NCBI GenBank assembly: GCA_964016885.1
Contig: OZ024746.1
Span: 53,816,001 to 53,880,000, forward strand
Source: Eledone cirrhosa
Lineage: Eukaryota
Length of the DNA stretch: 64,000 bases
Direction: 5' to 3'
Of this stretch, positions 2,408-46,570 are shown one piece after another. Position 1 is the first letter of the stretch, and each line of letters starts with the position of its first letter. The notes beneath the pieces are model-generated. The model ran no database searches, was not told the DNA's origin, and saw only the letters and a program-made list of their open reading frames with translations. A program made the translations under genes and the position numbers.

Positions 2408-2850
2408 TATTAATTCAAAATATTAATAAATGTAGACATACACGTAATCAAAATATATTTTTTATTATATATATTTCGGAGGTACTGTGTTGTTTTTTCA
2501 GTACGTCCTCATCAGATAAAATATATAAATTGATGTATGACATACCTCAACTGTGCTGATGGTTCAATTCCAGTTTTGGCAGCCAATACTGGAATTGAAC
2601 CATCAGCACAGTTGAGGTATGTCATACATCAATTTATATATTTTATCTGATGAGGACGTACTGAAAAAACAGCACAGTACCTCCGAAATATATATAATAA
2701 AAAATATATTTTGATTACGTGTATGTCTACATTTATTAATATTTTGAATTAATATTAATAACTCCAGAAAACTTTTACAGTTGAGTGCTTCTAATCTATT
2801 GTAAAACTATATTAATTGATTAATCAATGAACCTTGTTTAACTTTTGGTT
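2408..2850. mobile_element. Fold-back PLE pseudo-LTR-like insertion in (TA)n
   Basis: Palindrome 2408-2754 centred at 2581 (ttggc-a-gccaa), then a ~95 bp tail to (TA)n at 2850. Confidence 0.75.
2636..2709 (+). ncRNA. Minimal type I hammerhead ribozyme (mirror copy on - strand ~2453-2526)
   Basis: atatattttat-CTGATGA(2647-2653)-ggacgtactg/cagtacctcc-GAAA(2685-2688)-tatata-TA-ataaaaaatatat. Confidence 0.8.
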
Positions 2851-3090
2851 ATATATATATATATATATATATATATATATGAAAACAGGGAGAAAGAGAC
2901 GATTATTAGGAAGAAAAATATTTTTTTTTTCCTTTTTTGTTTTTCTCTCCCTTTTTTCTGGGTTAGAAAATGATTAAAACGAAATGTTTTACTTTGTGTG
3001 AAGTGTTAAGGTATTAGTTGATTTATTTATTATTTAACAATGGCATTTATTTATCTATTTATATATTTAATTGTCTATATATATATATAT

Positions 3091-3650
3091 AAGTTATTCC
3101 AGGTTCAATCGAGGGTAACCACAGTAAGTAAGGTACTCAATACATAATAGAGTATAAATGTTTAATATAGAAAAGCTTCTACAGGACTAGAACTGTTTCA
3201 TTAGTGAGAAATCATCAGGAAGCTAACTGTCCAAGTAAATATGGTGGTATTTATATTTTTTCTAGTGGTAGGAGAAGGTGGTGATTGGGATGGGTGGGGG
3301 AGGTCATTGGTTGATGGGTTTAAAGAAAATGGAATTCTTTAAATGCTAATTCTTTAAAGCTATAATTTATATTTAGAGTGACAAAGGCAGAAAGAATACT
3401 ATAAACAAGTTCAGATTGGAGTACCACTCCTTAATTTTAAGTTTCTCTTAAGCTAACAATACCTATATTGCAGGTGTCTACAGGATGGGTGGAGGTCATT
3501 GATTTAAACAAAGGGGAATTCTTTAAAAGCTAATTCTTTAAAGCTGTATTTAGAGTGACAAAGGCAGAAAGAATTTGGGTTGCTTCTCCTTATTGTTAAG
3601 TTTCTCATAAGTTATTTTTCAGGTGTCTACAAACACCCCCCCCCCCACAC
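3091..3650 (-). mobile_element. PLE pseudo-LTR-like fragment with internal ~195-bp tandem duplication
   Basis: 3091-3223 is the reverse complement of the 35190-35320 tail. Blocks starting ggatgggtgg at ~3289 and ~3483 are duplicates. Ends at (TA)n. Confidence 0.6.
3175..3223 (-). ncRNA. Type I hammerhead ribozyme motif
   Basis: Reverse complement reads gcttc-CTGATGA-tttctcactaat-GAAA-cag ttctagtc ctg-TA-gaagc. Stems I and III pair; stem II is decayed relative to the 35142 copy. Confidence 0.65.
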
Positions 3651-3653
3651 ACT

Positions 3654-4443
3654 ATTCCTCATTGAGCCACACCGGGAATGGTTGCCAAAAACATATATAT
3701 GTATCTATGACTTTGTCTAATTTATATATACCCTTTAAATTTAATATATACTCCCGTAAGGTTGAGTAAAACTTTAGGCAGTATTCGACTGCGATTTCTA
3801 GCAACCAGCCTACTCACCGACAGGCACCAATCACAACGTTCTGTCTTGACCACTGGCCACGTGATGGTTCTTAGCCATTTTGAATTCATTTTTGGTGGGG
3901 ATCATGCTAGAAAAATCTTAGTCCAATTAAGGTATCACCTGATGAGTTCTGAGCCTTGTGGATTTATCCAAGACCGGATATATCCCAAAAATGGAACGAA
4001 ACCGCCAGGTGGTAGAGATTATGAAGATTCTGGTAAAGTTTATGTACATTGTTTTCTTCTAATTTCGATTTTGTACCTAATTACGTGTAATTAATTATAT
4101 GTCTAGTCAATTTCTACAGGCTAGTAGAAATATTAAGTAAATATCATGTAGTTGTATGTCGCGGAAAAGAAGCTATGTCATTTGTCTATTATTTCTTCAT
4201 AAGAACATTTTAAACTGATAGCCGCGTTTAAATGATTTTTGTATGGATGATTTATACTGATTGGAAGAGGAAATACTGTATATATTTTATCTACTGATTC
4301 TTTGGACTTACTTTTTATATATTGCGCTGATTATTAATTATTTAATTAATTCTTCATTGAGCCACACCGTGAATGGTTGCCAAAAACATATATGTATCTA
4401 TGACTTTGTCTAATTTATATATACCCTTTAAATTTAATATATA
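3654..4443 (+). mobile_element. ORF-less hammerhead-containing monomer (695-bp period) with ~95-bp terminal direct repeats
   Basis: cattgagccacaccg...ccctttaaatttaatata occurs at 3660-3750 and 4355-4443, with a single hammerhead inside; ends in (TA)n. Confidence 0.65.
3934..4019 (+). ncRNA. Type I hammerhead ribozyme motif
   Basis: atcac-CTGATGA(3939-3945)-gttct...ggaac-GAAA(3998-4001)-ccgccaggtgg-TA-gagat; one mismatch in stem I. Confidence 0.65.
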
Positions 4444-4483
4444 TATATATATATATATATATATATATATATATATATATATA

Positions 4484-5497
4484 TCTGTATATATATAAAA
4501 TTAAGTATGTTTGTGTGTGTCTGTGTGTCTGTGTATTACCTATAGGGGCCTACATCTTACGACCGATTTTCATGAAACTTTACAGGCTCATAGATTCGTC
4601 ATCGGGCAGTGTTTTCTATATATCAACGTATCGCTTTTTTTTTTATTCCGGGGTCATTCTGCAGATAGAAATCGATAGGGGTCACCTTTTTTTAGGTATC
4701 AAAAAATAAGACTTTTGTCTCTAGCTCCCACATTTTGCCACCGATTTCGTTCAAATTTTAAAGCAAAATAGAATTTATCATTGCACATCTTGTAATGGCT
4801 TCATATTTTGTATTTGTTGTTCAGGGATGGCGTGGCAGCCGCTTAAATATTCAAAAATACCACTTTTAGACTCACATTTCCACTTTTTCGGCTCTAACTC
4901 CCACATTAATCAACCTACTTTGTTCAAATTTTACACTACGCTAGATCTGATTATTTCACGTCTTAAAGTGGCTTTACATTTTGGATTTTTTAAATTCAGG
5001 AACGGCGTGGCAGACGCTTAAATATTCGAAAATACCACATTTTCGCTCAAATTTCCGCCTTTTCGGCTCTAGCTCCCGCATTTTTCAACCGATTTCGTTC
5101 AAATTCGAAACTTCGGCTCCACCTCACACATAAATCAATTTATTTGGTTCAACTTTTATACTGCGATAGAACCTATAATTGCACATCTTATAGATGGTCA
5201 AAGGCAAAACGATGGTCACTGACGTCGTCTGAGCTTTTAGTTGTGTATTTGAGAATTCATCGGTTTGCAATCAAGTAGCGTGAGGAAATTTGGCATAGTG
5301 TTAGAGGTCATTACCTCCCTCCTCCAGCATGCCCCTTTCGTCAGTCACCCGCGTTTCTCAGTGATAGAGGTCATCACTACCCTCCCCCGCATGGTCTGTG
5401 TGTGGCCATAGATGAGTCATCGAGAAGCAGTCGCTAAGATCTTCATGAAAGCAGATATTATTTTACCTACCCAGGCAACGCTGGGTACTGCTGCTAG
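4484..5497 (+). mobile_element. Non-autonomous Helitron
   Basis: 5' TC after A; subterminal hairpin cccaggcaacgctggg; CTAG end followed by T; internal ~180-bp subrepeats (ttttcggctctaRctccc...ttcaaatt). Confidence 0.75.
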
Positions 5498-44750: not shown

Positions 44751-44890
44751 TTACTATTATAAATAATAAGTTAGGGACCCCCTGAAAACTTAATCTCTCT
44801 TGTTTGCTTTTAACAAACGCCATGATATTCTGGTCGTACTAGGGTACAATGTATGCCCCCTTGTTGTGGACTAATGCTTGAAAGCGTGTG

Positions 44891-45090
44891 NNNNNNNNNN
44901 NNNNNNNNNNNNNNNNNNNNNNNNNNNNNNNNNNNNNNNNNNNNNNNNNNNNNNNNNNNNNNNNNNNNNNNNNNNNNNNNNNNNNNNNNNNNNNNNNNNN
45001 NNNNNNNNNNNNNNNNNNNNNNNNNNNNNNNNNNNNNNNNNNNNNNNNNNNNNNNNNNNNNNNNNNNNNNNNNNNNNNNNNNNNNNNNNN
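44891..45090. other. Assembly gap
   Basis: 200 N. Confidence 1.
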
Positions 45091-45289
45091 GCATTTCGGC
45101 GGGTAGAAATTAGCGAAACACAACTTCTGTATTGTGCAGACAAGCGCTCCATGGATATGAAGACACCAGAGCTATAAACATAAGTTAAAATGCTCATACA
45201 CACTGAGACGATGGTTAAGAAGCCATTAACCACCGTAGCCAAAAAAGCGAACAAGCTAAACGGGTCAAACAAAATAGAATATGATTGAA

Positions 45290-45826
45290 ACGTCTGTATA
45301 CATATATGTAAGTACGTATACATACTTATATTTAAGTAACAGCCGTACTAAGAGTGAGAAATGAAATTTCGTTTCATTTTTTCCGCTTATCGTTTTCGGT
45401 ACCCCCGACCGATTAACTCACTGGATATGCAAATTAGGCTGTTCAACCGTTAATATGCATAAGGAAAGTATATACTTTCAGACGTTCAACCATCTGGCAG
45501 GAAGGTATACGTTGCTGACGATAGCTAATAAGCTTGAAACTAGTACAGCGTTCCTTTGTCAGTGTTGAACAAATGAGCAACGATGGTTACTAGACGGCTT
45601 AATTCGGGATGTTTGTTTACAAACACACCGAGCATTATAATAAATGTTCGGTGAATCCATACGTACATATATATATGTGTGCATGTATGTATATATGTAT
45701 ATATATATATATATATGCATACTACTGTACGTCTGTATACATATATGTATGTACGTATACATGCTTATATTTAAGTAACAGCCGTACTAAGAGTGAGAAA
45801 TGAAATCTCGTTTCATTTTTTCCGTT
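45290..45826 (+). mobile_element. ORF-less hammerhead monomer, 439-bp period, 96-bp terminal direct repeats
   Basis: 45290-45385 closely matches 45729-45824; hammerhead in the middle; ends in (TA)n. Confidence 0.75.
45509..45551 (+). ncRNA. Minimal type I hammerhead ribozyme
   Basis: acgttg-CTGACGA(45515-45521)-t agct aata agct t-GAAA(45536-45539)-ctag-TA-cagcgt. Predicted cleavage after 45545. Confidence 0.85.
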
Positions 45827-45846
45827 TATATATATATATATATATA

Positions 45847-46570
45847 TTGTTATACTTTGGGAGGGCCATGTTGCCAATAAGAAACACACGCACCAGTTGT
45901 TTCACTCCAATTTATTATAAATTAAATTTATAAATTTAAGAAATTTATAAATTTCCGGTTGGTTGGTTGGTTCCACAACCAGACGGTTGTTCCTATATTG
46001 TCAAAGTTCTTTTGTCACACATTCTGTGACCTCTTCAGTGACTGGGGATTCTTTTCTTTGCTTTGTGCCTCTCCTTTGTTCTGTCCTCCGACATCTTGTC
46101 TCTCTGTGTGTGCACTGTGATATAAATATTATGAGATATTATTTTACTATTAAAATCTTAGGCACTCGGGTTGGCATTATTTATGAATTTGGAGATTTAT
46201 AGAGTATTTGATAGTTGTTACATGTAAAGTGGGTGAATTTTCTGTATGCAGGGGCCAGTGTGTTTGCATTTATGTCTGATGTGATGTGTGTGTGTGTGTG
46301 TGTGTGTGTGTGTATGTATAAACAAGATGGCGTAGGACAGAACAAAGGAGAGGCACAAAACAAATAAAAGAATCACCAGTCACTGAAGAGGTCACAGAAT
46401 GTGTGACGAAAGAACATTGACAATATATGAACAATCGTCCGTTTGTGGAACCAACCAACCGGAAATTTATAAATTTCTTAAATTTATAAATTTAATTTAT
46501 AATAAATTGGAGTGAAACAACTGGTGCGTGTGTTTCTTATTGGCAACATGACCCTCCCAAAGTATAACAA
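45847..46570. mobile_element. Inverted-duplicated element in (TA)n with degenerate hammerheads (46379-46421 +, mirror in left arm)
   Basis: ~250-bp arms (45847-46100, 46322-46570); gtca-CTGAAGA-ggtcac...gtgac-GAAA-gaacat-tgac. Relatives at 46688-46740 and 55430-55745. Confidence 0.65.

What the first reader, a model, noticed from the sequence alone, without database searches (positions are those of the whole stretch)
2408..46570. All inverted duplications have the same polarity: 5'-to-5' junction, tails pointing outward
Using the hammerhead to define sense, the units at 178, 2408, 13430, 13601, 34332, 34497, 35113, 45847 and 55430 all join at their 5' ends and read outward. One arm often lacks the last 60-150 nt of the tail and ends at an internal AT-rich word that merges into the TA tract. 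Inverted pseudo-LTRs are known for PLEs. Inference: because (TA)n is its own reverse complement, both cut target strands can prime reverse transcription. This would be a duplicative form of twin priming, possibly on an RNA dimer held by the palindromic loop III (cgatcg, tatata, ctag, ccatgg). The alternative is cDNA snap-back.
Basis: inference. Interest (0 to 1): 0.7.

Follow-up and report, generated by a model that had tools for sequence, protein, structure and literature searches.

The report
Penelope ends twin-primed at paired sites
These mirror-image inserts are the ends of Penelope-type jumping genes joined head to head, and in 185 of 188 scorable cases one half ends at a near site and the other at a far site, which likely means both broken DNA ends copy the same RNA from two fixed start points.

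Summary
Polarity confirmed: all nine named units are head-to-head, as are 218 of 219 direct inverted junctions of these seven families in the window plus 338 loci. The units are termini of Penelope-like elements (PLEs); three families sit 3' of PLE reading frames, one is a tandem retrozyme. Head-to-head polarity and a one-sided tail are published. The sharper result: each family has two fixed 3' ends, proximal (S) and distal (L), and 185 of 188 scorable pairs are S+L. In 65 pairs the tail-bearing arm is the shorter at its 5' end (9 the reverse), which cDNA snap-back cannot make. Arms share family variants far above chance, so both come from one template source. Best model: twin priming on one RNA at two programmed sites, both copies often stopping at a likely transcription start. 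The loop-III RNA dimer is not supported, and (TA)n symmetry is not required. 'All inverted duplications' is too wide: LINE and SINE pairs here are tail-to-tail. This scan reached similar readings earlier on other DNA, including this genome.

The parts
181..370 (-). Family B antisense arm, ends at proximal site S; (TA)n at 153-180
372..709 (+). Family B sense arm from 5' hotspot through type I hammerhead (371-506, loop III CGATCG) to distal end L; Hydra-type PLE terminus
2408..2581 (-). Family A antisense arm (S) with hammerhead 2466-2515
2582..2850 (+). Family A sense arm (L) with hammerhead 2647-2696 and 94-nt tail
3092..3482 (-). Single family F copy (L end) running upstream of the 5' hotspot
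13380..13511 (-). Family C antisense arm with partial tail (19-nt duplication at its end)
13512..13571 (+). Family C sense arm (S), into (TA)n
13602..13786 (-). Family D antisense arm (L); exception, unit is L+L
13787..14057 (+). Family D sense arm (L), begins 5 nt 3' of the hammerhead cleavage site
34332..34387 (-). Family C antisense arm (S)
34398..34465 (+). Family C sense arm with start of tail
34492..34603 (-). Family E antisense arm (S), the longer arm at the 5' end, holds the hammerhead
34608..34749 (+). Family E sense arm (L), 29 nt shorter at the 5' end, ends in a CA-type repeat
35128..35186 (-). Family F antisense arm (S) with hammerhead 35146-35184
35187..35320 (+). Family F sense arm (L)
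45290..45826 (+). Family D partial tandem (retrozyme monomer 422 nt) with intact hammerhead at 45515-45545
45847..46111 (-). Family G antisense arm (S); exception, unit is S+S with a 208-nt spacer
46320..46570 (+). Family G sense arm (S); 13 differences in 245 nt and no shared variant with the left arm
46689..46767 (+). Separate short family G piece with tail (L)
55429..55641 (-). Family G antisense arm (S), about 175 nt longer at the 5' end
55642..55769 (+). Family G short sense arm with tail (L)

Best explanation
These are head-to-head insertions of Penelope-like element termini, likely made by twin priming in which both cut target strands start reverse transcription on the same RNA, one at the family's proximal site (S) and one at its distal site (L). 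Shown: polarity, two fixed ends per family, S+L pairing, arm asymmetry, variant sharing, 0-5 nt microhomology or short templated inserts at junctions, and linkage of families A, B and G to PLE reading frames. Inferred: the enzyme nicks both strands of a microsatellite; each 3' end pairs with 3-5 nt at a start site; the L-primed copy usually runs on through the stretch the S-primed copy also reads (needs strand displacement or sequential use, untested); both often stop at the RNA 5' end (a likely pLTR transcription start), giving short near-perfect palindromes; the two cDNA ends are joined by end-joining and filled in. Priming at a downstream pLTR gives the long ORF-containing inverted units.
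For: S+L in 185 of 188 scorable non-D pairs (21 more had an arm too broken to score; 3 of the 185 are mirror duplicates), 90 of 92 outside query-picked loci, 20 of 20 in random stretches; D 17 of 20; 8 of 8 fetched ORF-scale units. Tail arm shorter at 5' in 65, longer in 9, co-terminal in 111. Minor alleles in both arms 174, in one 57; independence predicts 50 and 304; non-query 83 and 16 vs 33 and 116. Locus-private variants shared by both arms 18 vs 0.8 expected, while 138 are unshared, so later conversion is too weak to explain the concordance. Several haplotypes have similar arm divergence, so were co-active. In L231 the inverted arm differs from the terminal copy at 6 of 752 and from the upstream tandem copy at 16. 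138 of 170 S arms and 108 of 170 L arms end at one hotspot, a pyrimidine-A step 24-33 nt after a TATA-like word in A, C, F. An anole PLE nicks and extends both strands, starts at two RNA sites that bound the tail, and is predicted dimeric (PMC11167929, parts 1-2 of 4 read). L1 twin priming on one RNA gives internal duplications in 17% of inversions (10.1101/2024.08.27.596794, passages).
Against: L-arm 5' ends do not pile up at S (3.0 vs 2.3 and 1.8 per 1000 nt-pairs in flanking zones), so there is no sign of collision on one molecule. Two RNAs from one source locus would give the same variant sharing. Discordant sites exist: C position 374 is 16 L-only vs 1 both (the query carries that allele, so selection is my explanation, not shown) and F 295 is 0 both, 5 one in non-query pairs. 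Exceptions: S+S 2 and L+L 1 among non-D, S+S 2 and L+L 1 in D; two of the nine window units are among them. The 111 co-terminal and 9 L-longer pairs do not by themselves exclude snap-back. The start-site reading has no RNA support here and a cap-derived G was not evident (G at -1 in 20 of 104). No target-site duplication could be read in the TA flanks.
Confidence: 0.68

Rival explanations
1. Twin priming on two RNA molecules held in one complex (the first reader's loop-III dimer, or a protein dimer carrying two transcripts of one locus).
For: Palindromic loop III is conserved in A, B, D and is known to allow dimeric hammerheads (PMC4209133, passages). It needs no strand displacement. D arrays join multimers head to head. 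An asymmetric enzyme dimer could also enforce S+L.
Against: Random dimers from co-active haplotypes would give discordant arms; discordance at non-query diagnostic sites is 16 of 290 site-pairs, like background arm divergence. G has a non-palindromic loop in 47 of 52 copies and still gives 15 S+L pairs. C and D arms often lack a full hammerhead. Naiads lack hammerheads and invert; ribozyme-dead anole RNA inserts normally in vitro.
Confidence: 0.17
2. Single priming followed by fold-back: first-strand cDNA snap-back, or self-priming on an antisense RNA as proposed for rotifer PLEs.
For: Gives head-to-head polarity and identical arms; proposed in PMC3846280. Short fold-backs of 10-20 nt occur inside some junctions (L004, L308). 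Fits the L+L unit at 13601 and is not excluded for 111 co-terminal and 9 L-longer pairs.
Against: The copied arm cannot hold sequence that the template arm lacks, yet in 65 of 74 asymmetric pairs the arm with the extra 5' sequence lacks the tail and the other has it, including 34497 and 55430. Simple snap-back predicts equal ends or a random stop, not a fixed S end.
Confidence: 0.07
3. The palindrome is itself the mobile unit, copied whole from a few master palindromes (MITE-like), so polarity and S+L are inherited.
For: All 40 best matches to the 35113 palindrome have the same outline; one C junction recurs in about ten loci.
Against: Those searches used the palindrome or junction as query. 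Centres are 49 distinct of 53 (C) and 38 of 39 (F), though point mutations add to this; one junction occurs on several haplotypes. Variants are mirrored in both arms, not inherited asymmetrically. 74 asymmetric pairs have scattered junctions.
Confidence: 0.05
4. Independent neighbouring insertions in one TA array, or assembly/library fold-back artefacts.
For: 22 of 23 tail-to-tail neighbours are of this spaced kind; 45847 (spacer, no shared variants) may be two events; larger mirrors exist in L008, L250, L267.
Against: 218 direct junctions have no TA between arms; arms differ by 1-7% and end at different fixed sites; strand-switch joints recur in raw reads of separate samples.
Confidence: 0.03

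Closest known systems
Endonuclease-positive PLE insertions with inverted pLTR and one-sided tail (PMC3846280; PMC8557442 Fig. 2; PMC2377424)
   Same: Head-to-head inverted 5'-truncated copy, tail at one end only, partial tandems, (TA)n targets, hammerhead and TATA/Inr-like words in the pLTR.
   Different: Tails here are 53-136 nt, not 30-40. The passages I read describe the tail qualitatively and ascribe inversion to self-priming or the tail to endonuclease resolution; none counts S+L pairing or tests template identity.
Anolis Poseidon in vitro (PMC11167929)
   Same: Both strands cut and extended, two internal start sites bounding the tail, ribozyme cleavage dispensable, predicted dimer.
   Different: It reports no difference in start site between strands and no homology to the cut DNA, and in the parts read gives no model for inverted copies; here the sites are paired within an insertion and S sites show 3-5 nt of TA match.
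L1 twin priming (10.1101/2024.08.27.596794)
   Same: Two target ends prime one RNA; 5'-5' junction by microhomology; deletion, flush or duplication at the junction.
   Different: L1's second site is spurious and duplications are a minority (17%, median 22 bp). Here the second site is fixed per family and 143 of 170 detected direct pairs duplicate sequence upstream of S (short arms under 28 nt are missed).
Non-LTR retrozymes (10.64898/2026.07.22.740005, part 1 of 5 read; PMC7229834, search listing only)
   Same: Family D: 422-nt tandem monomers, each with a type I hammerhead.
   Different: D arrays are joined head to head and obey the S+L rule (17 of 20), pointing to PLE twin priming for their insertion.

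Membership tests
EN+ Penelope-like elements | RT followed by C-terminal GIY-YIG endonuclease next to the terminus | tested here: met
   G: GIY-YIG PF01541 E 8e-5 above cut-off, RVT_1 E 5e-4 below cut-off; B: RT and GIY-YIG-type motifs by eye, no Pfam hit; A: RT fragment only
EN+ Penelope-like elements | Linked reading frame for families C, E, F | not tested
   No long upstream stretches fetched; assignment rests on hammerhead, two ends, TA target and structure
EN+ Penelope-like elements | pLTR partial tandem, inverted 5'-truncated copy, one-sided tail | tested here: met
   L231: inverted L arm, upstream tandem copy, ORF, terminal S copy; two ends in all seven families
EN+ Penelope-like elements | Type I hammerhead in the pLTR | tested here: met
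   Core, stem I and cleavage triplet in A, D, F and B, E references; C core decayed, G stem III unpaired; activity untested
Hydra clade (family B) | CxCX5C linker, no CCHH, CxxC and CxH near the end, RWK-like motif, (TA)n target | tested here: met
   Motifs read in L231 translations (RWR) against PMC8557442
Hydra clade (family B) | DKT motif and phylogenetic placement | not tested
   No tree built
Neptune/Nematis clades (family G) | CX2-5CxxC linker plus CCHH in a C-terminal endonuclease | tested here: met
   L237 frame and family reference; which of the two clades was not resolved
Naiad/Chlamys | N-terminal endonuclease, no hammerhead | tested here: not met
   B and G have C-terminal endonuclease and hammerhead motifs
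Non-LTR retrozyme (family D) | Tandem monomers each with a type I hammerhead, no ORF | tested here: met
   L243 and L244 arrays, 422-nt period, no frame of 220 aa or more
Non-LTR retrozyme (family D) | Circular RNA and self-cleavage | not testable with these tools
   Needs RNA data or assay
Twin priming (L1 type) | Both arms independently primed, 5'-5' microhomology junction | tested here: met
   65 tail-arm-shorter pairs; junction alignments
Twin priming (L1 type) | Single RNA molecule as template | tested here: inconclusive
   Single source shown by variant sharing; one vs two molecules of that source not separable
Twin priming (L1 type) | Target-site duplication around the whole unit | tested here: inconclusive
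   Hidden by microsatellite flanks; no clean case among 42 pairs lacking TA on a side

The most novel reading that the evidence does not exclude
Twin priming is the programmed default of PLE integration: a dimeric enzyme assigns one cut strand to the proximal and the other to the distal start site of one RNA and copies that RNA twice, so the 'tail' is simply the offset between the two active sites' start points, and inverted pLTRs, solo copies and retrozyme arrays are one reaction with different arm lengths.
Probability: 0.5. Interest if true: 0.75.

Novelty: new variant of a known kind. Interest (0 to 1): 0.55.

Why it matters
How PLEs form their tandem/inverted structures is named as an open question in PMC8557442. 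The near-absolute S+L rule and the single-template signal tie the two in vitro start sites to the inverted genomic structure and give a direct test in the existing anole system. About 120,000 such junctions are extrapolated for these seven families (32 in 779,600 random bases), so the reaction is a major source of short palindromes in this genome that could be mistaken for MITEs, miRNA hairpins or assembly errors.

Tried and rejected
Rfam scan: the 150 of 224 matches listed were microsatellite-driven and below gathering scores, none a hammerhead; hammerheads were found by motif scans. Pfam on window PLE fragments: 0 of 6 hit. Pile-up of L ends at S: not seen. Cap-derived G: inconclusive. Homodimer folding energies of the seven hammerheads (-4.6 to -13.9 kcal/mol) did not separate families usefully. 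Sequence following L in the RNA was seen only for B and D. No RNA holder listed. Read laying showed only 15 of 68 and 15 of 21 joints and does not give their direction; polarity was inferred from position. The 65:9 asymmetry is not evidence for strand displacement, because an L copy has further to travel and S arms under 28 nt are missed. Five literature searches for a published twin-priming account of PLE inversion listed none by title or abstract start; subscription papers, Arkhipova 2006 and all supplements were not seen, so priority is open. The host species was not established.
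Full report
Observation. Self-alignment of the window finds inverted repeats at all nine places. They belong to seven families, here A-G. Motif scans place type I hammerheads in A, D and F, and family references built from genomic copies show them in B and E, decayed in C and with an unpaired stem III in G. With sense so defined, all nine units are antisense arm then sense arm. The window lies in a 3.0-Gb animal genome. I collected 240 loci by eight searches, 20 chosen long stretches and 78 stretches picked by place without regard to content (779,600 bases).

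Polarity. Adjacent same-family copies within 300 bp were 244 head-to-head, 23 tail-to-tail and 83 tandem. Counting only direct junctions gives 218 vs 1, and 112 vs 1 outside query-picked loci; the single tail-to-tail case has both arms broken before their 3' ends. Of 23 tail-to-tail neighbours, 22 are separated by TA tracts or other DNA. A SINE control shows no such pattern. In the window a LINE pair (15083-16303) and SINE pairs (e.g. 32593-32917, 24079-24887) are tail-to-tail and one SINE pair (44388-44748) is head-to-head, so the title holds for PLE termini only. Head-to-head as the usual PLE arrangement, with the tail on one arm, is stated in PMC3846280 and PMC8557442 (passages).

What they are. 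Long stretches show B and G directly 3' of RT plus C-terminal endonuclease frames and A 3' of an RT fragment. B has the Hydra-clade motifs, G the Neptune/Nematis linker and CCHH; no tree was built. D forms 422-nt tandem arrays, themselves joined head to head. C, E and F were not traced to a frame.

Two fixed ends, paired. Every family has a bimodal 3' end. Among 209 non-D head-to-head pairs, 188 could be scored at both ends: 185 S+L, 2 S+S, 1 L+L (the 45847 unit was wrongly merged by the script, removed, and added back by hand as S+S; 'L' includes partial tails; 3 of the 185 are mirror duplicates). Independent use of the two sites would give at most half. Non-query pairs give 90 of 92, random stretches 20 of 20. 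D gives 17 of 20, with 9 unscorable and 4 at locus edges dropped. Eight of eight fetched long B and G units are S+L at their outer ends; a ninth G pair (L250) is a tail-to-tail mirror inside a larger 99% mirror.

Snap-back fails as the general route. The L arm is shorter at its 5' end in 65 pairs, longer in 9 and co-terminal in 111. A fold-back copy cannot carry a tail that its template arm lacks. L arms run from tail-only (as in classic twin priming) to full duplication. Junctions show 0-5 nt overlaps and short, sometimes templated, inserts, as expected of end-joining (established knowledge).

One template source. In 145 pairs with enough overlap, arms differ less than random pairs (A 2.9 vs 9.4%, C 4.7 vs 11.5%, F 6.7 vs 10.7%; B, E, G closer to null) and share 18 locus-private variants against 0.8 expected, with 138 unshared. 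Minor alleles fall in both arms 174 times and in one 57 times; independence predicts 50 and 304. Haplotypes overlap in age, and rare variants are also shared across spacers of kilobases, so neither subfamily succession nor hairpin conversion explains this well. Two sites run against it (C 374, F 295). One RNA and two RNAs of one locus cannot be told apart, and L ends show no pile-up at S.

Why so many short palindromes. Most arms stop at one 5' hotspot per family, a pyrimidine-A step about 30 nt after a TATA-like word in A, C and F, weaker in B and E, and beside a YY1-like word in G (labels recalled). A promoter inside the Penelope pLTR is known (PMC2377424, passages). I infer run-off at the RNA 5' end; no RNA data were available. 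Raw reads confirm the hotspot for F (over 1,000 loose ends at 3221 in each of three runs) and show strand-switch joints such as 3218-3223 and 3146-3216 for F and 382-658 for B in more than one sample; these are other copies, some from a single read start.

(TA)n lies on both sides of 132 of 174 direct S+L pairs, one side of 34 and neither of 8, and all seven S sites continue with 3-5 nt of TA alternation, so short primer pairing is plausible; but E's L end begins AC in 11 of 15 listed copies, so a self-complementary target is not required. The loop-III dimer is a known route to ribozyme cleavage (PMC4209133) but is not needed here: G's loop is not palindromic, C and D arms often lack the ribozyme, and Naiads invert without one.

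Verdict. The structure is known; the paired-site rule and single-source evidence sharpen it into a testable mechanism that joins the in vitro results of PMC11167929 to L1-style twin priming. My searches listed no paper making this link, within the limits of the library. Earlier notes of this scan, read after my reading was fixed, reached similar conclusions on other genomes and on other pieces of this one; they are not independent support.

Noticed in passing
window 35683-42286 (-): Near full-length, broken PLE of an eighth family (RT and GIY-YIG-type frames 37323-40296) with a 1.7-kb partial tandem (96%) and a hammerhead at 40688-40711; a diverged sense piece of its end lies at 42738-42816 behind a TA tract.
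   Followed up: partly
window 15083-16303: Two 3' ends of a LINE with a C-terminal zinc-knuckle/endonuclease-type frame joined tail to tail in a (TAA)n tract, 89% alike; probably two insertions at one site.
   Followed up: partly
window 44388-44748: SINE pair in head-to-head orientation, 81-87% alike; other SINE pairs in the window are tail-to-tail.
   Followed up: partly
L008:34-1981; L250:4653-5396; L267:691-1288: Large mirrors (96-99%) that duplicate nested PLE units and flanking DNA; origin unknown, L250 may be an assembly effect.
   Followed up: partly
L243:3094-7272; L244:3375-6239: Family D retrozyme arrays of up to 8 or more monomers joined head to head with a shorter antisense array.
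   Followed up: partly
L231:4130-4205: A (TA)n tract sits between the upstream pLTR tail and the first codon of a family B element, i.e. apparently inside its own 5' leader.
   Followed up: no
window 35535-35640 and 61450-61465: Further hammerhead-like units: a single older relative of family A, and the only GAAA-CCATGG in the window next to a TA tract.
   Followed up: no
window 18204-23782 (+) and 26371-32002 (-): Two long LINE copies of one family in opposite orientation, tails facing.
   Followed up: no
window 49177-49711: 15-nt minisatellite, 36 copies, with open frames in all six phases.
   Followed up: no
window 34681-34720 and 44263-44349: Small perfect or near-perfect hairpins, the first inside the tail of the family E arm.
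   Followed up: no
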